A stretch of 64,000 nt of DNA from Podospora anserina (Eukaryota): positions 186,001 to 250,000 of the forward strand of contig CM030335.1 in assembly GCA_017654855.1 (NCBI GenBank), in the 5' to 3' direction. The notes beneath the pieces are model-generated. The model saw only the letters and a program-made list of their open reading frames with translations, had not been told where the DNA came from and searched no databases. The position numbers and the translations under genes are program-made. Shown here one piece after another: positions 17,500 to 45,290 of the stretch; position 1 is the first letter of the stretch, and each line of letters opens with the position of its first letter.

Positions 17500-18665
17500 T
17501 CGTAGGCGGGGGAACAGCTGGTCTTACACTCGCTGCACGTTTCTCCGAGAACCCCTCGTCCAATATCTTGGTTCTCGAAGGGGCTGCAGCCGTATTACAA
17601 GAAATCAGAGCAGTTTGTGACTTCATCAAAGGAGGTCAAGCACGATCTAGGAGTCCAGTTTCTTGACGAGACAGTGCATGGGAAGAATGGACCAATCGTA
17701 ACTCCTTTCCAGAAGTCTGCGGCCCGTTCCAGAAGACATGGGCGAGAACATATGAGAATCTGGGCCTAGGGGTCACCGGAGACCCGAGAGGACTTTCTTT
17801 GGGCGGCTTTGCTAATCCGTTCAACATTGACTCGAAAATCAAGGAACGGAGCTACCCTGGTAACAGGCACTATCTTGCAGCCAAAGGGAAAAAGAATCTC
17901 AAGGTCATTACCGGGTCTCGCTCTCGTGACAAAGATTCACACCGATGTGAGAAAGCAAGGCGCCCGCCCCTCCAACTGTCACAGGCGTGGGGTATGCCAA
18001 GGACGGAGTGAAGCACAATGTCTGGATCAACGAGGGTGATTGTCTCGGCAAGAGCAGTTGAGTCTGCCAAGCTGCTAGAGCTGCCTGGGATTGGCAGCTC
18101 TAGGCTTCTGAACAGGTTGGGAATCAAGGTGGTGGTCAACAATGGCTTTTGATGGAGAGAATTACCAAAATCACATCATGTTGCCTCTGGGGTTAGTACC
18201 TTGCTCATTGTCATCAAGATCCTGAGGTCCAGAACCCTAACACCCACACCAGATTAATGGCAAAATCCCATCTCACCACAGCCGAAGACTTCGCCGACCC
18301 CGCCGTCTTCCAAGCAGCCCTCTCCGAATACCTTACCAACCGCACCGGTCCCCTAACCGTTGTAAATGCCAGCTCAGCCCTCCCCGCAAATGCCGCCATC
18401 GCGAAAAGACACAGGCAAATACCTCACCCTCCTCACCCTCCTCCAGCAGCCCTTCTCCCGCGGCAGCATGCACATCTCCTCTTCCTCCCCCTCGCAACCC
18501 CCAGTGATAAACCCAAGCTACCTCTCCCACCCAATCGACCGGCATATCTTCCGCCTAAGTGCATTGCACCTCCAGAAGATCGCCTCCACTCCGCAGTTGT
18601 CGCATTTGTTGGAAAAGGGGGGCAAGGTTTTCCAACCGGGGTACCCAAGGGGGGGAAGGCGGTAA
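17500..18665 (+). pseudogene. Fragmented GMC oxidoreductase pseudogene
   Basis: VGGGTAGLTLAARFSENPSSNILVLE at ~17502-17580, VIVSARAVESAKLLELPGIG at ~18036-18095 and LQQPFSRGSMHISSSSPSQPPVINPSYLSHPID at ~18440-18540. These lie in different frames with large deletions, and the C-terminal catalytic His region is absent. Confidence 0.8.
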
Positions 18666-18796
18666 ATAGTGCTGTGGTTGCTGTGGCTGAGAGGGCGGGG
18701 GGTTGTGAAGGGGGAGTATGGGTTTGGTGGGGGGGTAGTTGAGGAGGGTAGAGATGGGGGTAGGCTATGGATGCATGTTTTGTTGAAACATTCATA

Positions 18797-20578
18797 ACGT
18801 ACATTATAAGCGAGTCGCGCACTAGCCATTGCGACGCGTTCTCTCTACACTTAACATCATTTTTCTCCACAACCCAACATGCCACCTACTTTAAAAGAAG
18901 CGAGGGTAATCTTAGCCCTCGAAGCTCTTCAGAATGATGAGCGTTTAAGCGTCAGAGCAGCAGCGAGGCTCTATAATATTCCAGAATTAACGCTCCGTAA
19001 CCGACGCGCTGGCCGGCCTACACGACGCGATACTACGCCCAAATCGAAGAAGCTCACTTAATCCGAAGAGGATATTATTGTTTAATATATTATTAAGCTA
19101 TATGCGCGAGCTTTTCTACTAAAATTACGTAGTGTAAAGATATAGCTAATTAATTACTACGTATACGCGACGTGCCCCTTATTAGTAAGCTTTAAGTATA
19201 TAACTTGGTTAAACGTTAACTATAGTTCCGTACGTATTTCACGTATAGATATAACTATTAAAGGGCTAAGTATAAAGATCTAAAGGTTATAGCCAAATAA
19301 TTCTCGTTTATATAAAACACTAAGGCTAAGTATAGTATTATAAATAATAATATTTATAAATTCGACGAATCTAAGTTTATAATAAATATTATTTTTATAA
19401 GTATAGTAATTACGACTTCGGACGGTTATAATAAAGTAAAATTAATTTAAAGAGTTAATACTTTCGGCTAAGCTATTCCCTTTTTTATTACTTTAATTAT
19501 AATACTATTTTGTTAATTAATATACTAAATATAATTTATTATTTACTTAATGTGTTATAATTATTAATAATAATAAAATTAAGTATTTCGATTATTATAT
19601 AACGTTCTATATAAAAGGTAAATATTAACTATTAATCCTCGAAGGTTACGAAAGTAATTATTTAACTAAATTTAAACGTTACTATTAATAGAATAATATT
19701 ATTATACTTTATATACTTTTATACTTCTTTTACTTCCTTTAGCTATTTGATATTAATTGCTTTGGGCCGTTAAAATAAACGTACGGTCGCTAGATCGAGG
19801 ACTTCATATATAGATATATTAATTATATAAGTAAGCTCGAGTTCCTCTATACTTTCCGCGAAGCCTTCTTTGCCTCTATAATAGAGAAAAATATATAGGG
19901 TAGCTTTACGGGTACTAGCCTTATACCGTACGATTTAAAGAAGGTACTTTTTAAGCTAGATATAAAGCTTCGTACGTTAATACCTTTAAATTTACGGCCC
20001 GGCACTATATAACTTTAGGTCTCCTAGATACTATATAACCCTCGAGAAAATAACTTATAGTTAATGCTTTTTAAGATTCGCATTACTAACTATTAAAATA
20101 GTTTCCTGACTTTAATATTAGCTGCGGTAGACCAGCTTATTAAAGGTATAACGGCTAGAATGCACTAGGTGGCTTTCCTTTGTATAGAGGTCTCTTTGCT
20201 CCGTAAGGCTAATGAGGCACTAAGTAAGCGCCGGAGAGCCAAAAAAACACGTGTGAGGCTTGGAAGGTAACTTACTGTACAAGAGGCACAGGATCTACTG
20301 GATCAGAAGGCCGTGGATAAGGAGGGAGTGTAAGAAACGTAGCCGGATAGTAGTAATGTAGGGGGGGCTCGTACGAAGGTTCAGTGCTGTGGTGTATGCG
20401 GTAAGCCTGGCTATAATGCGCGTATTTGCTAGGAGGCTGTAGAAGCATCTGATTCAGCTGTTTCTGATGTAATTATAGTTAATTCCTTGTCTTGATGTGG
20501 TGTAATTGAGGATAGTATTCGTAGGGTGGTAGAGAGTGCGCGACTCGCTTATATGCGCGACTCGCTTATAATGTACGT
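18797..20578 (+). mobile_element. Fot1/pogo-family (Tc1/mariner superfamily) DNA transposon, near full length, RIP-inactivated
   Basis: 25-bp TIRs ACGTACATTATAAGCGAGTCGCGCA flanked by TA on both sides (18795-96, 20579-80). Transposase start MPPTLKEARVILALEALQ...AARLYNIPELTLRNRRAGR at 18879; C-terminal CGVCGKPG(H)NAR(T)C knuckle at ~20388-20430; TpA-rich core with many TAA/TAG stops. Confidence 0.95.
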
Positions 20579-21255
20579 TATTGGATCCTGTTGTCTACCT
20601 GAGTTTAGAAGTTCATGTCTTTGGGTTAACTCCTGCCAATTCGAACGATACTCTGATGTCAGGTAGGTATCCAGAACTTGAGGCTCACAGCTCGGACTCT
20701 GTGGGTGAGTGGCATCCTGCTTGTCGACGGCACAGTCGGCATGGGAGTTCCGACATGTCGGGCATGTTCTCCCAAAGACACCTTACGTCGGTAGAAAGTC
20801 GAAAGTGGATTTATTGGATCATTCTGATAGGTGAAGGACTACCAAAATGTGACGCACAGTACCGTACGGGAACCAGGTGTCGAATTGGGTATGGGGTCCA
20901 AAAACGGTGTCAATTCTGTTGTTGTACGAGGGTGAGTTGCCCGGGTGGCTGGAAAAGGCCGAACCCAGTGGCCCAGGTCCCACTGCCAAGATATGAATTC
21001 CTTATCAGTGGGCCCAGTTGACTATTTGACACCAGGAACCAACAGGTTAGGCGGCAATGGACGAGGCTCGATCACGACGTACCACCAAAAGACGAGACCG
21101 AAAAATCACCGTCACACGGCCCCTGCATAAACCAGTCTAGCCAAATTGCGTACTCCTTTTATACCTAGGTATATAAGGCCCCTTCCTTCGCCTTGTACTT
21201 CCCTCATTTGTCCTCATATCCTTCTTCCTCGTCAACCACAAATAATCCTCTCAAA

Positions 21256-34406: not shown

Positions 34407-35115
34407 TGTTGGCGGTGAGTGTGTATAACACGGAGGATTAGGTGGATGGGTACATTGGTGTAACTTGCCTACCTTACCTTAGGTAGATAAAATTTACCAG
34501 CATGTGTTGCCGTGTGGTGAACACCCAGACTCTCATTTTGAGAGAAATCCAATGCTGTTTCTGGAAGACATACTGCCAAAATCGGAGGAAGATTTCTTCT
34601 TCATTTCTACATTCACAACCCTAAATCTTCCAATGAACCTGAAGTATAAGGCCGATAGAAAATAAAAATCCAAAATTAAATAAGCTGTAGAAAATATAGG
34701 TATTTTGGTATATCGAGCTTGTATTCTTCAGCTTTTTAGCGGAATAACAACTTGTTATATATTTAGATATTTATATTTCAATTTTTAAACCGAGATTAAG
34801 ATTATATAATTATAAGAAATGCGTTTTACTAAAGATTTAACTAAATAACTAACGTATATTATAAGCAAGTGACCCACTTCCTTCGTAATATAACACCTTC
34901 GCACTCAACAGCAATTTCCTTAACTATTTAAGATACTTTCTAATTCAAATAAAGCCCACATAATTTTAGCCCTCCAAGCGCTTCAAAACGACAAGAATCT
35001 AATGTCACAGTTAACCTAACGGCAAGTCGCGCTATATGTAGGGCGCAGGTCGCCCCTAGCTAATTATTAAGGAAGCTAGGGAATAAGCTAATTAGGCCTA
35101 AATAAAAGTGCTATG

Positions 35116-35484
35116 TGTGACGAACCCCTGTATAGAACCTCTGAAAGGGATACTAATTAAAGGTAACTTTTAATAATTAGTTCGGTATAACTAAATAGTA
35201 TATAATAAAATATCTTAATGTAAATACTAAATACTGTAAATATAAACTTAAATTATATACTACGGAACTATCTATTTATATTAGCTAGTTCTTTCGTATA
35301 TATAAACCGGTTTATTACTATTATTACTAGTAATAATATTAATTATTACTTGTCGCTTATTAAGGCTAGTAATAATCGTAATTATTACTTTTAGCGCTAA
35401 TAATAATTTAGCTTTCTTACTTTTCCGTACTAGTAGTTAAACGGTTCGCGCCCCGTATTCTCCGCTTATATTAGGACCGTAATA
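35116..35484 (-). repeat. 3' LTR (type B)
   Basis: Direct repeat of 41513-41881; adjacent to the polypurine tract. Confidence 0.93.
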
Positions 35485-35597
35485 TAATATCCTTCCTCTA
35501 GGTTAACGTCTTATTAGCCTAGTCTCGTCGACTATATACGTTTTTCCTTCTTTTTTTATAAACCTCTCTCTAATTATATAATGGCCTAACTAACGTT

Positions 35598-36286
35598 ATA
35601 TCTATAGTAAAACCTCTATCGTCGTTTATATAATATTGTATTAAACTCGCTTAAAATATTATTAAAAACGGTTTCCTCGTTATACTTTACTCGTAGTATA
35701 ATTCGTAGGGGTTATCTTACCGTATAATGGATAAAGTAAAGCGTTATAAGGCTTATATATATCGTAAGCGTTTATATAATAGTACCGGTATCCCTATCTC
35801 CTCGCGTAAGTCTCCCGTTACCTTTCTTTTCTTCTTACTAATCTCTTTTTAGTAAATAAGATTATACAAGAGTAACGTCGTTTTTAGGAGGAAGAGAAGC
35901 GGGCCGAAACTCTTTTAATCGAATACTAATAGAAAGCTTTTAAGGCTTTAACTCGTCTATCGCGAGTCCGTTATTAACGTAAATTTCTTATAAATAAGGG
36001 AGCTATTATAGTCGCCCGCAGCTTCTTTTCTCTCGATAAATTAGAAACTACCGAACGTATCGAATAGGAGGAAGCTACGTAAGCCGCGCCGGCTATACCG
36101 TTATTTAACAACGTTCCTTCCTCTAATTATATTCCCTTAAATCCTTCCGACTTTTCCTTTCTAGATCCTTCCTTAAGCTTCGACTAGCCGCCTAACCTTT
36201 CCTTAAACCCGGGCGTAGCCGGTCCTTCCTTCCTGACCCCGCAAAGTGCCGCCGAGGGCGCGCTTTCTACTTTTTAAGGTAATTAA
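35598..36286 (+). pseudogene. RIP-inactivated antisense accessory ORF of the retrotransposon: Zn(II)2Cys6-spaced motif plus coiled coil, with one intron
   Basis: TAC/TAT codons at 35688-35777 spaced x2-x6-x8-x2-x6 (TGY->TAY by RIP). Intron 35806-35852 (GTAAGT...TACTAAT...TAG) preserves the frame. All in-frame stops are TAA/TAG. The start codon is uncertain. Confidence 0.7.
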
Positions 36287-36328
36287 AACGCGTAGTACTA
36301 CTTATACTTAAGTCTTTCCATACCTTTT

Positions 36329-36398
36329 AACCTCGTAGTGTAGTGCGTAGTACGTCGGCTACCGCGTTAAAGGTATAGGTTCGATTCCCGTCGAGGTT
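36329..36398 (+). ncRNA. tRNA-like cloverleaf, copy 1 (inside the retrotransposon, antisense to pol)
   Basis: 7-bp acceptor stem AACCTCG/CGAGGTT; A-box-like TAGTGTAGTGCG; B-box GGTTCGATTCC; non-canonical 6-nt anticodon loop. Confidence 0.7.
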
Positions 36399-36527
36399 CT
36401 TCCGTATCTAAGTTTATAGATACCCCTCCGTAGCTTAGGTATAGATCTTTTTAGCTATATCTTTAACTTTTTTTACGGTAGTGGAGGCGTATAGTATTAG
36501 TTAGGCCTAGATTTCTTTATACTTACT

Positions 36528-36597
36528 AACCTCGTAGTATAGTACGTAGTACGTCGACTACTATATTAAAGGCGTAGGTTCGATTCCTACTAAGGTT
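36528..36597 (+). ncRNA. tRNA-like cloverleaf, copy 2
   Basis: Copy 199 bp downstream of copy 1; perfect T-arm GTAGG-TTCGATT-CCTAC; followed by a T-run. Confidence 0.65.
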
Positions 36598-39500
36598 TTT
36601 TTATATTTAAGTTTATAAATACTTTTCTATAGTTTAAGTATAGATCTTTTTATTATTTAGGTTTTGGTCGGTTTAAGTATTATTAGTAAAATTCTTTTTA
36701 CTTATTTAAGTAGTTAAGATATACCTATAGTTCCTATAAGTTATTTATAATTAAATATTTTAATTAATTAATTAAATACTTTAATTAACCTTTATTAAGC
36801 TATAAATCTAATATTTCTTTTATATTATATTTTTCTTCTTCGTCCTCCGCTACTACTTATATATTAGCTTTATTTATATATAGTATAGGTTCCAAAAGTA
36901 AAATATAAAAAGTATATAACCGTAAACGTATTGTATTAAGTAACTCTAATTCGAATACCGTTTCTAAAATCTTTTTTTTAACTTTAAATAGGCCTACTTT
37001 TTTATAGTTTAGCTTCTTATTAAGTCTTTTAATACGTAAATTATATATAAAAAGGAATACTATATCCCCCCTTTTAAAACAAAGTCCTTCGAGCCTTTTA
37101 GTATTATAGTATTTTCGTATCCTTTCCTTTATAAACTCTAGCTCTTACTTTAGCTTACCGTAAAGTATATATAATTTATTTACTTTAATTCTAGCCTTAA
37201 GTACCTTAACCGTAGGTCCTTACTGTCGGTTTACTTTATAGCCGAAATTCGCGAAGAAAGGTATAACTTTCGTGGTTTTTATTAATAATATATTATATAT
37301 TAATTATACTGTAAATAATAATTTAATTTAATTATCCTACTCGAAATTAATATAATTTCGTAAGTATTATTCTATAATTTAATTAAGCCGTTCCGTTTAA
37401 CCGTCCGTTTAAGGGTAATAAACTAAAGATACTTTATTTATTACTTTTAGTTTAGTTATTAACGCTCTTTATAACTTCGATACGAATTTAGTATTACGGT
37501 CCGTAATAAATTTTTTTAACTATATATATATTAATATAATATACTATAATACTATATTCGCTAATTACTTTACCGATTAAGTTTTTTTATAAAGTAAAAA
37601 ATATATTTATTTAATAAGCCTATCGATTACTATTAATATATTATCGTATTTAACGCTAATTACCGTATCTTTTAATTTTAATAATTTAATAATAAAGTCT
37701 ATTATAATTAAATTTTATAATTATTTTACTATTAATAATAGCTTTAGAAATCTATATAGTTTATACCTCGTAACCCTCGTTTTCTCGTACGTATAGTATA
37801 ACTAAATAACTTCCTTAACGTCGTCCTTAATCTTTAGTTAATTAAAATACTACTTAATCTTTTTTATAGTTTTAGCGATACCTATATATCCTTTAAACTT
37901 CGATCCGTAAATCTCTATTACTAATATCGTCCTATTACCTAGCATTACGTACGCTCGATTTTTATACTATAGTCTTCCCTAACTATCTTTTTAGATACCT
38001 TATAGCTCTAACTTTTCCTATTAATATTACTCCGTAATATTATTACTTAACCTTCCTTAATATTTACTGCTAGAAGTAACTTACTTATAATATATTATAT
38101 AATACTTTATTTACGGCTAAAGTAAATATTTAAGAGTGCCTTTTAGTATTTCCTCGAGTAATAATAGTAATTCCCTAAATATATCTTTATAATAATTAAA
38201 TCGCCGGCTAAATACGTCTACCTTAACGTTTTTTAATCCCTTTTTATAATTAATTTAAAAATTAAATTTTAAAAGAAACTTTAATTATTATATTTATTAT
38301 ACGTTAAGGACTTTTATAATAGTAAAATATTATAGGTTTTTATAATTTATATAAACCTATACTTTATAATTAATATTATTAAAATATAACCTCTATTCTT
38401 CGAACGCTTTAATAATAGCGAATAGCTCTTTATTATAGATTAAGTAGTTTTAACGTATCTCTTTTAGCTTCTTCGAAAAGAAAGTTACTAGGTATAGCTT
38501 CCCGTTATTATTTCGCTATCCTAATTATTTACCGATCGTATAGTTTAATATATCCGCCTCGACCTTAAATAATTAATTAAAGTTTAGTAATTTAAATACT
38601 AGGTCCTTTAAAATAGCTTTTTTTAGCTTTTAAAAAGCCTACTCCTTTTTCTACCCCTACCGGAACTCTACGTCCTTCTTAATTAAGTAATTAAGTAATT
38701 ACGCGATTCTTATATATTTATAAATAAATATCCGATAGAAGTTCGTAAATCCTAAAAATTCCTTAACGTATATTTATAATTACGGCGTAAGCTAATTTTT
38801 AATTACCGTAATTTTCCCCGGTTTTATACGAACCTTACTTAACGATATTAAATATTTTAAATATATTATTTTTTATACGTAAAACTCACTTTTTTTTTTA
38901 TTAATTAAAAGTCTAGCTCCATATAGCGCGTTAAATATTTTTCGTACGTATCGCTTATACTTTTCTAAAGTACGTAAGTAAATAAAAACGTTATTAAAGT
39001 AGTATATTATTATTTTATCGAGGTACTTCCGGATCGTATAATTAACAAGAGATTAAAACGTTATAAGTATATTAATTAGCTTAAATAATATTATAAGATA
39101 CTCGAAATAACTATAGGGTATACGAAACGTTATTTTTTATTTATTTCTTTCTTTAATCCGTATATAGGTATATCCGATAAATATATTTAAATATATAAAG
39201 TATTATACCCCTATTAATTAATTCCGTAACTTAGATATTAACGGTAGCGGGTAATTATTTTTTACCGTTACGTTATTTAATTAGCGGTAATTTATATATA
39301 ATCGTAAGCTATTGTTTTTTTTCGGTATAAAGAATACGGGGTATCTTACTAGCGATATAGACTCCTTAATATATTTTCTTTTTAGATTTTCGTTTAAGTA
39401 CTTCCGTAGCTCCTTACTCTACTTATCGTTAGTATAATAGACTTTAAATAGCCGTAATTTAGCTTTCTCTTTTAATTTAATTTTATAGTCCTACGGTCCT

Positions 39501-41512
39501 CGCTCTAAAAGTCCTTTTAAATACTTAGCCGTAAAGGCTAAATATCCTCGATATTCTATTAGTACCGCTTTTTTCTTACCTTTCTTTACGTTATTATAGT
39601 AAGTATACTTATTAACCTCCAATATCTCTACTAACGTTATTAACCCTACTTCTTCGATTTTACCGCTTATATCGATAAAGTATACTATTACTTTTTAAAC
39701 TCCTTACGGTAATACCGTAAAAGGTACTTATCCTATACTTTACTCTATATATATACCTAATTTCCTATCGTTAATTAAATACTTTTAAAGCTCTTTTAAT
39801 CGTAAATAACTATTATCCCTCTAATCGATATTTAGGTTATAGTCTTTATATTATAGTTACCTTAAAATTATATCCTTCGAAGGTTTTATATTTATAATAT
39901 CGAATATAATTAAAATTATTTTTCCTTTAATTATAATAATTAAAAATAATATTTCTCTATAGACTCTTTACGTCGGAAATAGTCCTTATATAACGATTTA
40001 TTCCTTCTTTTTTCTCTATAGTATTTTAGTTTAATATATAAACTATAGCGAAATTAGGTTCGTTTCTATACCTCCGTTTACTAATATTACTGTTTAAATA
40101 TTCTTTTAATATATTATAACCTAAAGGCGTTTATTTTTTTTATTTTTTCCTTATATAATAGCGACCTCGCTAATAAGTACCGGATTATTATCCTATACCT
40201 TCGCTTTATATTAATATTTACGAAAATACTATTCGTGGTTCGTTAAAGGTTACCGGCCCTCGCGAAGGGCTGTAAATCGTTTCTTAAGCGATTATATTGT
40301 TTAAAAGCGTCCTCTTACTCCGGATTAATTAATAATATAAAGTTTTTTAACTATACTTACTTAGCTTCTTCTTATCTTCCGTCTTTTACTTCCTTAATAC
40401 TCTTTCGTATTTATATTTAGTAACGGTTCTTCGCTTTATTTAATTAGTATTTAATAGCTACGACCTCTACTACTTTTGGTCCCTTTAATATAATAATTAT
40501 TGCGATTTCCCTTTTTTAACCGAGTTACTTAAATACTTTATAATCCTTTTTAAAGTATTTTACTTTACTATAATTAAAATACTTAAGGTTATTTCTACCT
40601 TAGCCCCGGCCTTACGGCTTTTACTATTAGATAGTATCGACCTCTATAGGTCCTACGTAGGTAGTCCCTAAAACGTAAGTCCCGTACGGCCGTCTCTTTT
40701 TATTATTATTAAAGTAATAAAGTCTTTATATATATATATTTTTATATTCCTTACGTCATTAATATTATTAATCGTCGATATAGATTATTATTATAATATA
40801 TTTATCGATAGTTTCTAGCCGCTTTATTTAATATAGTTTATCCTTAACTTCTTCCTTAAACTTATTATAAAACACTTATATTAACCTTTTATCGTTAATC
40901 GCGTTACGGAATATATTTATTTTAAATACTATAGCGTAATCGGTAGTAAATCGAGTTTATTTAAAGTTAGCTAGTCGCTTTTAAATACACTTACTTTTAT
41001 TATACTCTTTAAATACTTCCTTAATTTTCTTTTTAAAACTTTTATAAAACTTAAAATATATTTAAGTAATATCCTCCCTCTAATTAAGCGTATTATTAAA
41101 GTAATTTCTTAAAATTGGTTCGAATTACGTAAATGCCGTATCTTTAAGCCTAGACGCGGCGTATATAACTTTAGATTCCTCGTTTAAGAAACGAAAAGGG
41201 TAGTACCGAAAATAAACTTTAAGTTAAATTAAGAATCCTCCTAGCTCTCCTTTTATACTTCTATAGTAATTAGGTACTTCGAGCTTCGTACGCTTTCCCT
41301 CTTTACGTAAAGTATTAATTTTTTAATAGAGTATAGCGTTTCTTACGTAAAGGTATTATAGGAAAGGCGTAACTTATTTTTAAGCTTTTAAATACAAGCG
41401 AGAAGCTAATTAATAGTAGGTTGGGTCGGGATTCCCTAAGTATTAATGTTTCCGGCTATAGCGTTTTAATACTTTTAATTTATTTATAATAAGTTAAAGT
41501 AAGTATATAACG

Positions 41513-41881
41513 TGTAACGAACTCCTATATAGAACCTCTAAAAGGGATACTAATTAAAGGTAACTTTTAATAATTAGTTCGGTGTAGCTAAATAATATAT
41601 AATAAGATGTCTTAATGCAAATACTAAATACCGTAAATGCAGGCTTGAATTGCATACTGCGGAACTATCTATTTACACTAGCCAGTTCCTCCGTATATAT
41701 AGACCGGTTTATCACTATTATCACCAGTGATAATATTGATTATCACTCGTCGCTTACTAAGGCTGGTGATAATCGTGATTATTACCCTTGGCGCTAGTGA
41801 TAATCCAGCTTCCCCACCTTTCCGTGCCAGTGGTTAGACGGTTCGCGCCCCGCATTCCCCGCTTATATCAGGACCGTGACA
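41513..41881 (-). repeat. 5' LTR (type B)
   Basis: Direct repeat of 35116-35484 and less RIP-mutated; TATA and shared R/U5 half at 41513-41703. Confidence 0.93.
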
Positions 41882-43245
41882 CTATGGCGCCAAAGCTCAC
41901 GAGCAGTCTGCAGGATGCAAGATGCTAAGGGTGATCAGAGGCATAGCACGACGAGCACGTTGCAGGATGCAATGTGCTAGGAGTGATCGGGGCCATAGCA
42001 GGGCGAGCACCTCACGGCCCCAGGATCTATATATACGGAGGAACTGGCTGGTGTAGATAGACAGTTCCGCAGTATGCAATTCAAGCTTGTATTTACGGTA
42101 TCTAGTGTTTACATTGAGACATCTTGTTGTGCACTGTTTAGCTGCACCGAACCAATTGTCAGAAGTTACCTTCAACCAGTATCCCTTTCAGAGGTTCTGT
42201 ACAGGGGTTCGTCACATCTAAACGAACGAACCGCAGCCAAAATCTATAGAATCGATCGTAAGACTCTAGGGCGTTAGCGCGCTGGCCGGCCTATACGACG
42301 CGATACTATACCTATATCGAAGAAGCTTACTTAATCCGAAAAAGATACTATTATTAAATACGTTATTAAGCTATATACGTAAGCTTTTTTACTAAGATTA
42401 CGTAATATAAAAGAAATAGCTAACCAACTACTACGCGTATACAACGCGCTCTCTATTAGTAAGCTCTAAGCATATCACTTCGTTAAACGCTAATTATAAC
42501 TCCGTATACGTTTTACATATAAATACGACTATTAAAAAGCTAAATATAAAAATTTAAAGGTTATTACCGAATAATTTACGTCTATACGGAATATTAAAGT
42601 TAAATATAATATTATAAATAATAATATTTATAACTTCGACGAAACTAAATTTATAATAAATATTATTTTCGCAGGTATAGTAATTATAACCTCAGACGGC
42701 CTTAAAAAAGTAAAACTAATCTAGTTTAGTAACTATAAATAAGCACCTATAATTCAAGGAATCAATACCCTCAGCTAAACTATCCCTCCCTTTATTATTT
42801 TAGCCCCGTAGTACTACTTACTAACTAATATACCGAATATAACTTCCTAGCCGACTAGCGTATTTCAATTACCGATAATAGTTAAACTATTAATACGGTA
42901 AGCTTAAATTAAATTAAGTACTTCGATTACTACACGGCGTCCCGTATAAAACGTAAATACCGGTTGTTAATCCTCGACGGCTACGAAAGCTACTACTTAA
43001 CCGAATTCAAGCGTTACTATTAATAAAATAATAATATTACGCTCTATATACTTCTATATTTTTTTTTTACTTTTAGCTACCTGGTATCAGCTACTTTGGG
43101 CCGCTAAAGTAGGCGTAGAGTTATTAAATCAAGGACTTAATATATATATATGTTAACTATATAAGTACGCTCGAATTCCTCTATACCTTCCGTAAAACTT
43201 TATTTACCTCTATAATAAAAAAAGATATATAGGGTAGCTTTATAG

Positions 43246-43526
43246 TAGTTTGGGGTGCGGCCACAGGCTTGAGAGTATGAGTAAGGAAGCGGGGCTCTCG
43301 GAGGACTCAGGAGTTCAGGGGTCATGTATATAAGCAGTCTGCTTTGGACATTCTATTTTAGACAGGACATCGACTTTTATTTCTTTATATTTTGTGCTTT
43401 GCACGCGTGCAGTCAATTCTGGCCCTCTGATCAGGCCAATCCGGTGCTTATTATGTGGCCTGCGAGCCCATAGTGTCTTTTCTTTGTCCTGCGTGAAGTG
43501 CGGCCTGCGAGCGAGTCACTGTCACA
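43246..43526 (+). mobile_element. Probable 5'-truncated LTR of a different family abutting the truncated transposon
   Basis: Abrupt switch to non-RIP composition at the truncation point; TATATAA box (~43327); internal GGCCTGCGAGC repeat; ends in TGTCACA. No TG start or TSD found. Confidence 0.5.
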
Positions 43527-45290
43527 ATGTTAGTTTATATGATGATTCAACTAGGCCTTTACCTTGATTTGCAAATTAGGTATTCGAACTTAACTTAGTT
43601 GATTTGGACATTTGAAAATTAAATTTTTCTTGAGAGGGGGTAGGGTGGAAGAGGCAATTCCACTCCTAACTACACACCCCACTCAAGTCCAAAAGCGGCA
43701 ATACATTTCCCTTGACTGGAAGAACATTTGATTCGCCAGACAGTATATTAGCACCCCCCCCTTTCTTCCTCTGTCTTAGTGTTGGCCATGTATCAAATGG
43801 CTCCTCTCGATCCGGCAGTTGCACGTGAGAACGCTTGGTCGACGAAATGGCGGAAATCTTGTCTCTTCAGGCTAAAAGAAGGACTGGCTACCGATCCACT
43901 TTGGAACCCGAGACCCAGGTTTCCCGTGCGTCTTGTTACGTCGATCTGCATCGTTAGCGATATGTTTAATACCGGGGATTGACCTCTTCACGTCTCGACT
44001 TTTTGTTCTTGCCTTTTCACTTTTCTCTTCTTCCCCAAACAACAAAGGGGCTCTCGGCCGAAATGGCGCCAGATATTGCCATGAACCTTGCTCCCCACCC
44101 CCTCTCGAGGCGTTATCTTGAGCAACACGATTCTCTGTCCAGGCGGTTCAGCAGTTTCCTAACTGGGAAGGTGACTTTTGTACGTTCCAGAGGGAACAAC
44201 AACAGGACGAGCAACCGCTTCTCTCCCCAGACCGGATTCTCCCATTTTGACAGCTTGGCAGGATTCAGATGTGCGTTGGATCCTTTTACCGTTGTTTCTC
44301 AATATCTTCCTCCTCAAGGAAGTACTACTTTCTGTTCTTGTTCCCCCCGTGTAACGATCCCACCCGTCCTTTTGCTGTGGCTCCTACCCATGATGTCTTC
44401 CCAACTGCCGTCAGCGAATGGCGCTGCCACACCCGCGCGGCACTCTGCACCGCACGCACACGGGGCAGCCCTGGCACAGCGGCTCATTCCCGGCCGGACA
44501 ATATTGGGCCCACACATGGTCCAAAATTCCCGATCGATGGCTGTTCCCGGAGTTCATCTCTTGGCTTTGACGGGAGCATAATGTCAGCATTATCAAGCTC
44601 GGAAACCTTCCCCAAGTATTCTCTCGTGAGATGTATTTTTCTCCCCTTTGGTTCGCTGTCTGGGATCAGATTACATGCCAAGTTTGGAAGACCAGCAATG
44701 GCGGTCGAGGGATATCATGTGTCTTGATATCATCTTTTGGTTGCTGCGCCATCCTACCAGACAATCACAATGGTACCCTACAAGCAACTCCCTTGACAGC
44801 TTGCACCACGAATTGTCAGTATCACGCCAGCGCAAGAAAAGAACGACGTTGACACCTGCTCGCTAGACTAGCTCCCGTCTTGGGTAGGTCGTAAGGCGGT
44901 TTTGATCTTGGCCACCCTCTTCTCATTTACATGGCACCCGCATTCAGCATCGTGTCAAAGTTCTAAGCATGGCCTTGTTCCTACCCTACCCAGGTTGATA
45001 TAGGAAAAAGATGGTGGAGAAGGTCTGACATCTTGTTCGCGATGCCCTTTGCGGAAGGTGGTGATGATTTGGGGACCAATATGTCAACGCCATCACGGGT
45101 AACCTCCCTCTTTCTACCTATTCCCAGCCACCAGTCCACAAGCTGATGTTGTCTAAGACAGAGATAAATAGACATGCTCATCTCGCTGTTGTTTTTCTGT
45201 TGCAAGATCACCATCATCACTTTCTGTCTCTCTCTCTCTGTCCTCGTCCTCCTCACTTGTCTACTCCCGAGTTTAACAACAGACTTCAAC

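What the first reader, a model, noticed from the sequence alone, without database searches (positions are those of the whole stretch)
35598..36286. RIP-encrypted antisense ORF with exact Zn(II)2Cys6 spacing and a spliceosomal intron
Seen: in one + frame, Tyr codons at 35688, 35697, 35718, 35745, 35754 and 35775 give x2-x6-x8-x2-x6 spacing. A GTAAGT...TACTAAT...TAG intron (35806-35852) keeps the frame into a charged helical region (EEEKRAE...RLSRVR..R.FL..KG..VAR). Every stop is TAA/TAG. Established: RIP converts TGY (Cys) to TAY (Tyr) and CAR/TGG to stops, and Cx2Cx6Cx5-12Cx2Cx6-8C is the fungal binuclear zinc cluster. Inference: the ancestral ~210-aa product read roughly MPCSWCNSQGLSCRMMDKAKRCKAC..RKRSCDG plus coiled coil and acidic/Pro tail, that is, a TE-encoded transcription-factor-like protein. 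The ORF track cannot show it.
Basis: partly seen in the sequence, partly recalled or inferred. Interest (0 to 1): 0.78.

Follow-up and report, generated by a model that had tools for sequence, protein, structure and literature searches.

The report
Decayed antisense zinc-cluster gene in retrotransposon
A mutation-riddled fungal retrotransposon carries, backwards between its polymerase gene and its end repeat, the wreck of a small Gal4-like zinc-cluster gene whose intact relatives occur, often in several copies, in many related fungi.

Summary
The Tyr spacing alone is weak: the same pattern hits a second place in the AT-rich island. Homologs settle it. Exon 2, read with X at stops, finds 26 proteins (best E 2.6e-24). 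Full-length relatives carry C-x2-C-x6-C-x8-C-x2-C-x6-C exactly where the window has Tyr. A profile of their N-termini finds exon 1 at E 4.6e-5. 34 of 46 differences from the family consensus are C>T/G>A-derivable, against 1 in reverse.

The gene lies antisense inside a 6766-bp Ty3/gypsy element with a 5-bp target duplication, between pol and the 3' LTR. Two tRNA-like units follow it.

The family is unnamed, spans six Sordariomycete orders, and has identical multi-copy paralogs.

Still open:
- Zn2Cys6 membership is likely but sub-threshold in Pfam.
- Transposon linkage in other species was not testable.
- Transcription-factor function was not testable.

The parts
35111..35115 (.). Target-site duplication CTATG, left copy. 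The right copy is at 41882-41886.
   Evidence: Sequence. Contigs of X1, X21 and X22 join 35110 to 41882, skipping 6771 nt with 4-5 shared letters. These are empty sites of the repeat that received the element.
35116..35484 (-). 3' LTR of the Ty3/gypsy element (in the element's sense), TG...CA type, heavily RIP-mutated.
   Evidence: blastn gives 366 nt at 85% identity to 41512-41877. The alignment fixes the ends as TGTGACG...GTAATA against TGTAACG...GTGACA.
35490..35499 (-). Polypurine-tract-like run (AGAGGAAGGA on the minus strand), 5 nt from the LTR edge.
   Evidence: Read directly. Its function is inferred.
35598..35805 (+). Exon 1 of the antisense accessory gene. It holds the start ATA (from ATG), a basic N-terminal helix and the six-Cys cluster, now six TAY codons at 35688-35777. 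It has 4 in-frame stops.
   Evidence: The family N-terminal profile gives E 4.6e-5 at 35622-35804. All six Cys columns are TGY>TAY-derivable.
35806..35852 (+). 47-nt spliceosomal-type intron, GTAAGT...TACTAAT...TAG, phase 1.
   Evidence: The two profile hits lie in different frames on either side of it. The spliced reading is gap-free against homologs. Many database ORFs open just before the (D)RI..E.RRL motif.
35853..36277 (+). Exon 2: long coiled-coil-type helix, acidic tail and TAA stop at 36275. It has 8 internal stops.
   Evidence: phmmer finds 26 hits, best 2.6e-24. The C-terminal profile gives E 6.7e-19. Against P0001, 59 of 100 positions are identical and 35 of the 41 differences are RIP-derivable.
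36329..36399 (+). tRNA-like unit 1, on the same strand as the accessory gene, 52 nt after its stop.
   Evidence: Rfam tRNA 29.5 bits against a gathering score of 29.
36528..36598 (+). tRNA-like unit 2. The two lie in a tandem duplication of about 199 nt (36271-36453 and 36470-36652, 73% identical).
   Evidence: ARAGORN calls tRNA-Arg(TCG). Rfam tRNA 35.6 bits. Repeat family D2.
36650..41400 (-). RIP-ruined gag-pol of the Ty3/gypsy element. RT lies at about 39328-38858, RNase H at about 38650-38303 and the integrase SH3 at about 37069-36887.
   Evidence: Pfam RVT_1 3e-7, RT_RNaseH_2 1.6e-16, RT_RNaseH 2.5e-12 and SH3_Tf2-1 3.3e-6 on the read-through translation.
41513..41881 (-). 5' LTR of the element.

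Best explanation
Positions 35116-41881 are one RIP-inactivated Ty3/gypsy LTR retrotransposon on the minus strand. In the slot between the end of pol and the 3' LTR it carries an accessory gene on the opposite strand. The gene has two exons and one 47-nt intron.

In its intact form the gene encodes a protein of about 190-210 aa with these parts:
- a basic N-terminal helix;
- a six-cysteine C-x2-C-x6-C-x8-C-x2-C-x6-C module that is predicted to fold like the Gal4-type Zn(II)2Cys6 binuclear cluster;
- a helix of about 60 residues of coiled-coil type;
- an acidic tail with an invariant Trp.

This copy is dead. RIP (C>T/G>A at CpA/TpG) turned ATG into ATA, all six TGY into TAY, and Gln/Trp/Arg codons into stops (12 internal stops in all).

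Shown here: the gene structure, its protein family, the direction of decay, and its place inside an LTR- and TSD-bounded unit.

Inferred, at about one in three: in live copies the gene is transcribed antisense from or near the 3' LTR and spliced. The protein then enters the nucleus, dimerises through the long helix and binds CGG-type sites, most plausibly in the element's own LTR, to tune the element's transcription. The tRNA-like units just downstream might define the 3' end of its mRNA or act as a barrier between the two convergent genes. That last point is speculation.
For: Homologs and Cys columns:
- Searches give 26 homologs.
- The six Cys are invariant in 16 of 16 full-length sequences.
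- 76 of 115 family proteins have the canonical pattern, 71 with the exact spacing, and 34 of 36 in A5.
- The window has Tyr in all six columns.

RIP direction:
- Of 92 conserved columns, 46 are identical and 46 differ. 34 of the differences are derivable by C>T/G>A only. The reverse direction explains 1, and two transversion controls explain 3 each.
- Against P0001, 35 of 41 differences are RIP-derivable and 2 are reverse-derivable.
- Independent profiles give E 4.6e-5 and 6.7e-19.

Transposon context:
- pol domains on the minus strand, LTR pair, 5-bp TSD and empty-site contigs.
- The accessory region has a summed contig depth of 574-1295 against a single-copy depth of about 110-130 in X1, and 202-534 against 40-60 in X2. 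It is therefore repeated.

Fold:
- AlphaFold models give pLDDT 83-87 or 78-86 over the cluster and 87-98 over the long helix.
- Every Foldseek match is a Zn2Cys6 DNA-binding domain entry: 13 of 13 and 28 of 28. Best E is 0.15. The Gal4 core superposes at 1.5 A over 30 columns and Cyp1 at 1.2 A over 28.
- Zn_clus is the commonest Pfam match, in 15 of 36 members at E<=1.
- UniRef names the Pyricularia and Verticillium members 'Zn(2)-C6 fungal-type domain-containing protein'.

Multi-copy state elsewhere:
- One identical Verticillium dahliae protein carries at least four accessions, with two locus tags of one BJF96 assembly shown, and is counted on 4 contigs. A near-identical protein carries two more accessions with two further BJF96 locus tags.
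- There are three loci in one Pyricularia strain, and identical pairs in Colletotrichum truncatum and Apiospora.
- Other database copies show Cys>Tyr at cluster positions: P0016, P0055, P0069 and P0084.
Against: - No family member reaches Pfam's Zn_clus cut-off. The best is 19.5 bits against 21.
- A family profile finds no Zn2Cys6 chain in PDB sequences.
- One member, P0040, has 11 residues rather than 6 between Cys2 and Cys3.
- The accessory region's summed depth is about 6-10 times lower than pol's. Only a subfamily may carry it, or the pol figure may include related families.
- The genomic context of homologs in other species could not be fetched.
- There is no RNA evidence for the gene here.
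- CGG/CCG triplets are too common in the element (45 and 80 in 6.8 kb) for the LTR's CGG-N8-CCG to mean much.
Confidence: 0.72

Rival explanations
1. Passenger gene. A host gene for a small zinc-cluster protein was transduced once into one gypsy subfamily. It rides along with no role in the element's life cycle.
For: The summed depth of the accessory region is about 6-10 times lower than that of pol and far lower than that of the LTR. In several chromosome-scale assemblies homologs are annotated as ordinary hypothetical genes. Capture is one suggested origin of the plant antisense extra ORFs (PMC7264820, passages read).
Against: Identical multi-copy paralogs occur in four species. RIP-type Cys>Tyr decay occurs in copies from other genomes. 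RIP hits only duplicated DNA; this is established knowledge that I recall. The intron and the length are conserved across six orders.
Confidence: 0.14
2. Nested element. The 1.2-kb block (accessory gene plus two tRNA-like units) is a separate small mobile unit that landed inside the gypsy 3' untranslated region.
For: The adjacent tRNA-like units resemble SINE heads. The block's copy number differs from that of pol.
Against: No terminal repeats or target duplication around the block were found by the repeat search or by blastn. The polypurine-like run still abuts the LTR. The block fills exactly the slot that plant antisense extra ORFs occupy (PMC7264820).
Confidence: 0.06
3. The gene is real, but the cysteine module is not a DNA-binding Zn2Cys6 cluster. 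It could be another zinc or disulfide module used for protein or RNA binding, so the protein is not a transcription factor.
For: The Pfam match is sub-threshold. There is no PDB sequence match. Structural scores are weak. The Cys2-Cys3 loop lacks the run of basic residues typical of Gal4-type factors (consensus; the Gal4 feature is recalled).
Against: The spacing is exactly canonical. All Foldseek matches are Zn2Cys6 domains. The order cluster, linker, long helix, acidic tail mirrors Gal4, Put3, Ppr1 and Hap1.
Confidence: 0.15
4. Chance. Tyr-rich RIP sequence happens to mimic the spacing and there is no gene.
For: The same regex hits a second, unrelated place in the island. Tyr makes up 8-9% of codons there.
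Against:: significant homology of both exons, in order, with directional RIP differences.
Confidence: 0.01

Closest known systems
Antisense additional ORFs (aORF-3R) of plant Ty3/gypsy elements: maize Grande gene23, rice RIRE2, Silene Retand
   Same: They lie between pol and the 3' LTR, antisense to gag-pol. Some products are nuclear, and a regulatory role is suspected (PMC7264820, abstract and passages read).
   Different: The host here is a fungus. No sequence relation was tested or is expected. That review says the plant products resemble no database proteins, whereas this one has a recognisable Gal4-like build. The review's text has no occurrence of 'fungi', 'fungal' or 'zinc'.
HBZ, the antisense bZIP factor of HTLV-1 (recalled from memory, no call)
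   Same: It is a spliced gene on the minus strand, transcribed from the 3' LTR. It encodes a small nuclear factor with an activation region and a coiled-coil dimerisation helix, and it modulates LTR-driven transcription.
   Different: This is an analogy only. HBZ belongs to a retrovirus of people, has a bZIP rather than a zinc cluster, and shares no homology with this gene.
Gal4/Ppr1/Put3/Hap1-type fungal Zn(II)2Cys6 transcription factors (Pfam PF00172)
   Same: The six-Cys spacing, the predicted fold of the cluster, and the order cluster, linker, coiled coil, acidic region.
   Different: The protein is much smaller (about 200 aa) and has no fungal-specific middle homology region. Pfam scores stay below the cut-off. 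There is an extra basic N-terminal helix. The genes are multi-copy and sit in a transposon in this window.
RIP-mutated retrotransposon relics of Sordariomycetes
   Same: An AT-rich island with TpA excess, TAA/TAG stops and transitions only between the LTRs.
   Different: Ordinary in itself. The point of interest is the accessory gene that the relic preserves.

Membership tests
Fungal Zn(II)2Cys6 binuclear cluster (Pfam PF00172 Zn_clus) | Six Cys spaced C-x2-C-x6-C-x5-12-C-x2-C-x6-8-C | tested here: met
   76 of 115 family proteins carry the pattern. The rest are N-terminally cut gene models, Cys>Tyr copies, or the spacing variants P0040 and P0081. 34 of 36 in A5 carry it, and 71 have the exact x2-x6-x8-x2-x6 spacing. 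The window has TAY at all six columns. Exception: P0040 has x11 between Cys2 and Cys3.
Fungal Zn(II)2Cys6 binuclear cluster (Pfam PF00172 Zn_clus) | Score at or above Pfam's gathering cut-off (21 bits) | tested here: not met
   The best score is 19.5 bits (P0007, E 0.0011). 15 of 36 members match at E<=1, all below the cut-off. The window's own translation gives 0 families.
Fungal Zn(II)2Cys6 binuclear cluster (Pfam PF00172 Zn_clus) | Fold of two short helix-strand motifs around the cluster, like solved Gal4-type domains | tested here: inconclusive
Fungal Zn(II)2Cys6 binuclear cluster (Pfam PF00172 Zn_clus) | Binds two Zn ions and CGG-type DNA as a dimer | not testable with these tools
   This needs metal analysis and DNA-binding assays.
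Antisense additional ORF of an LTR retrotransposon | Lies between pol and the 3' LTR, on the opposite strand, inside one LTR- and TSD-bounded unit | tested here: met
   pol on the minus strand ends near 36650. The gene lies at 35598-36277 on the plus strand. The LTR is at 35116-35484. The TSD is CTATG, and there are empty-site contigs.
Antisense additional ORF of an LTR retrotransposon | Shared by the copies of the element family | tested here: inconclusive
   The region is repeated, at about 5-11 times the single-copy contig depth, but about 6-10 times less than pol. Summed contig depth is a coarse measure. The letter table was cut, so bases in other copies were not seen.
Antisense additional ORF of an LTR retrotransposon | Homologs in other species sit in the same slot of related elements | not testable with these tools
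   Two metagenome scans found no locus. Indirect evidence only: identical multi-copy paralogs and RIP-type decay in other copies.
Ty3/gypsy LTR retrotransposon | LTR pair with TG..CA ends, 5-bp TSD, and pol order RT, RNase H, integrase | tested here: met

The most novel reading that the evidence does not exclude
A lineage of Ty3/gypsy retrotransposons spread through the Sordariomycetes encodes its own antisense, spliced, Gal4-type zinc-cluster factor. The factor binds the element's LTR and sets when the element is transcribed. It would be a fungal counterpart of the retroviral antisense factor HBZ and the first functional clue for the antisense extra ORFs of LTR retrotransposons. The downstream tRNA-like units would serve as a processing signal or barrier between the two convergent genes.
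Probability: 0.3. Interest if true: 0.8.

Novelty: new variant of a known kind. Interest (0 to 1): 0.62.

Why it matters
Extra antisense ORFs of LTR retrotransposons are known from plants, but their function is unknown (PMC7264820). Here the product has a recognisable build: zinc cluster, coiled coil, acidic tail. Intact natural relatives exist, so the question 'what do antisense ORFs of retrotransposons do?' becomes testable with standard DNA-binding and reporter assays.

The result also gives a likely context to a sizeable family of unnamed 'hypothetical proteins' in Sordariomycete genomes. It shows that RIP relics can be read back through their intact relatives.

My literature searches found no paper describing such a gene in a fungal retrotransposon.

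Tried and rejected
- Pfam on the window's own read-through exons gave 0 families.
- The word-index protein search with exon 2 gave nothing.
- Earlier findings of this scan, searched by place, sequence and words, gave nothing.
- Two metagenome scans for loci encoding relatives found none, so no context for homologs was obtained.
- No whole genome is held for this window.
- No RNA holder was listed for the stretch. The two runs guessed to be RNA laid only on the LTR and flank repeats. This says nothing about expression.
The bases at the six codons in other genomic copies therefore stayed unseen.
- Homodimer prediction (residues 28-150, two copies, four Zn) gave no verdict, score 0.27 against a mark of 0.32.
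- The Foldseek-independent structure search was filled by coiled coils for the full model. It showed nothing standing out for the 96-aa model.
- The PDB sequence-profile search gave only coiled-coil noise.
- CGG-N8-CCG is present and identical in both LTRs (35442 and 41839), but CGG/CCG triplets are too frequent for this to count.
- Weak N-terminal-profile hits elsewhere in the window (54.2, 20.8 and 16.3 kb) are not zinc-cluster genes.
- Pfam on the gag-side frame and on the 41987-43567 frame gave 0 families.
- I built no back-mutated sequence. Natural intact homologs made it unnecessary.

Full report
WHAT IS THERE

The window is fungal-type DNA of about 55% GC with an AT-rich island at roughly 34.5-43.5 kb. 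In the island TpA/ApT is 1.5-1.7 and (CpA+TpG)/(ApC+GpT) is 0.12-0.28. The flanks give 0.6 and 1.25. This is the signature of repeat-induced point mutation (RIP); the index thresholds are recalled.

On the minus strand a read-through translation (X at stops) carries RVT_1, two RT_RNaseH families and the Tf2-type integrase SH3 domain. Direct repeats of about 369 nt at 35116-35484 and 41513-41881 are 85% identical and differ only by transitions. They begin TG and end CA, and they are flanked by CTATG on both sides. Contigs of three public runs join 35110 directly to 41882 with 4-5 shared letters, which is the empty site. So 35116-41881 is a single 6766-bp Ty3/gypsy insertion.

THE OBSERVATION

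The six Tyr codons, their spacing, the 47-nt GTAAGT...TACTAAT...TAG intron and the charged helical reading after it are all present at the stated coordinates. All 14 in-frame stops are TAA or TAG.

The Tyr spacing alone would not have convinced me. Tyr is 8-9% of codons in every frame of the island, and the same regular expression hits a second, unrelated place.

WHAT SETTLES IT

I searched 1.8 billion representative proteins with exon 2 only, stops as X. This gave 26 hits at E<=1e-3, the best at 2.6e-24.

The full-length hits (178-209 aa) all have, upstream of the matched part, MPCS.C....L.C.MMDGVSRC..CVRRGRSCDG. In an alignment of 16 full-length members the six Cys are invariant.

The window's exon 1 was not used in the search. 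It aligns to this region without a gap and has Tyr in all six Cys columns.

A profile built from the homologs' N-termini finds 35622-35804 at E 4.6e-5 as the only significant hit in a six-frame translation of the whole window. The C-terminal profile finds 35858-36178 at E 6.7e-19. The two hits are in different frames on either side of the proposed intron.

With the intron removed, the reading ...GIPISS-L-NKIIQE... is collinear with ...GVPIST-L-DRILQE... of P0019. Many database ORFs from genomic contigs open just before this point and lack the cluster, as expected if the intron position is conserved.

DIRECTION OF DECAY

At 92 conserved alignment columns the window agrees in 46. Of the 46 differences, 34 can be derived from a codon of the consensus residue by C>T/G>A changes alone. 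The reverse direction explains 1, and each of two transversion controls explains 3. The 34 include ATG>ATA at 35598 and all six TGY>TAY.

Against the closest hit P0001, 59 of 100 positions are identical and 35 of the 41 differences are RIP-derivable, against 2 in reverse.

THE FAMILY

A profile search found 49 clusters. The ESM Atlas lists nearest clusters of 122, 90 and 62 members, all 'hypothetical protein' from Ascomycota with no common Pfam family. The six named carrier species that I looked up fall in six orders of Sordariomycetes.

Several species hold identical copies at different loci:
- One Verticillium dahliae protein carries at least four accessions, with two locus tags of one BJF96 assembly shown, and is counted on 4 contigs. 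A near-identical protein carries two more accessions with two further BJF96 locus tags.
- Pyricularia has three loci in one strain.
- Colletotrichum truncatum and Apiospora each have an identical pair.

Four database copies have Tyr at cluster Cys positions, one of them at most or all of them (P0016, P0055, P0069, P0084). RIP strikes only duplicated DNA (recalled). Both facts therefore point to a repeated, transposon-like state in other genomes too. I could not see their neighbourhoods.

IS IT A ZN2CYS6 CLUSTER?

In favour:
- The spacing is canonical in 76 of 115 proteins. The rest are truncated gene models, Cys>Tyr copies, or the spacing variants P0040 and P0081.
- Zn_clus is the commonest Pfam match, in 15 of 36 members.
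- UniRef names some members accordingly.
- AlphaFold models place a short helix after each CxxC, with pLDDT about 78-87 over the cluster.
- Every Foldseek match in the PDB is a Zn2Cys6 domain: 13 of 13 and 28 of 28. These are Gal4, Ppr1, Put3, Hap1/Cyp1, Leu3, Pho7 and AlcR, plus 1cld and the CBF3 kinetochore entries, which I take from memory to be Lac9 and Cep3. Core rmsd is 1.2-2.6 A.

Against:
- No member reaches the 21-bit cut-off; the best is 19.5.
- The E-values are weak (>=0.15).
- The Foldseek-independent search was inconclusive.
- A sequence profile found no solved relative.

I therefore call it Gal4-like in build and probably a divergent member, not a proven one.

The long helix (residues 67-125 of P0024, pLDDT 87-98) and the acidic, Trp-bearing tail complete a miniature Gal4 layout.

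TRANSPOSON LINKAGE IN THIS GENOME

The gene is internal to the LTR- and TSD-bounded unit. It lies 113 nt from the LTR edge, just beyond a polypurine-like run.

At 80% likeness, contigs of two DNA runs cover the accessory region at about 5-11 times the single-copy depth. They cover pol at about 35-100 times and the LTR at about 150 times. The gene is repeated, but perhaps only in a subfamily. Summed contig depth is coarse.

Twenty runs from eight studies hold this very copy, so the relic is old and fixed in the species.

MECHANISM (INFERRED)

The layout recalls two things. One is the antisense extra ORFs that plant gypsy elements carry in the same slot, whose function is unknown and some of whose products are nuclear (PMC7264820). 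The other, from memory, is HBZ of HTLV-1.

I think the most likely role is a self-encoded regulator of LTR transcription. It would be made from an antisense, spliced transcript that starts in or near the 3' LTR.

Two tRNA-like units reach Rfam's tRNA threshold (29.5 and 35.6 bits). They lie on the gene's strand 52 nt after its stop, between the two convergent genes. Their role is open.

RIVALS

- A passenger gene captured by one subfamily.
- A nested small element.
- A cysteine module that does not bind DNA.
- Chance, which is excluded.

LITERATURE

Eight searches found nothing on such a gene in a fungal retrotransposon. I also read passages of PMC7264820, PMC3248453 and PMC3441728. In the passages that my term searches returned, the fungal LTR survey does not mention antisense or extra ORFs. 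The Verticillium paper's text has no occurrence of those terms, and its gypsy section does not mention them. Supplements were closed.

Noticed in passing
window 36271-36652: There are two tRNA-like units (36329-36399 and 36528-36598). They lie in a tandem duplication of about 199 nt at 73% identity, inside the retrotransposon. They sit between the accessory gene's stop and the end of pol, on the accessory gene's strand. Both reach Rfam's tRNA gathering score. ARAGORN calls only the second, as Arg(TCG).
   Followed up: partly
window 34900-35114 and 41882-42100: The element is inserted into another high-copy repeat, with summed contig depth 17,000-32,000 against about 110-130 for single-copy DNA. 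Contigs with the empty site exist in DNA runs and in runs guessed to be RNA.
   Followed up: partly
window 42026-42216 and 41899-42002: An inverted partial copy of the same LTR (191 nt, 85% complementary) lies 145 nt beyond the element. A 52-nt tandem repeat lies between them.
   Followed up: no
window 42200-43500: More RIP-type AT-rich sequence. By eye, one read-through frame looked like a DDE transposase remnant. Pfam found nothing, so this is unconfirmed.
   Followed up: partly
window 35442-35455 and 41839-41852: CGGTTCGCGCCCCG (CGG-N8-CCG) is identical in both LTRs, about 145 nt upstream of the accessory gene's start. It is a candidate zinc-cluster site, but such triplet pairs are common in the element.
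   Followed up: partly
window 36864/36939 joined to 41515/35115 in contigs of run X1: Some genomic copies join a point just inside the pol 3' end directly to an LTR start. These are either gag-pol deletion derivatives that keep the accessory side, or nested LTR insertions. Another copy has a 463-nt deletion inside the accessory gene (35678 to 36142).
   Followed up: no
window 18000-21000: A second, smaller dip in GC (0.37-0.40) may be another RIP-affected repeat. I did not examine it.
   Followed up: no
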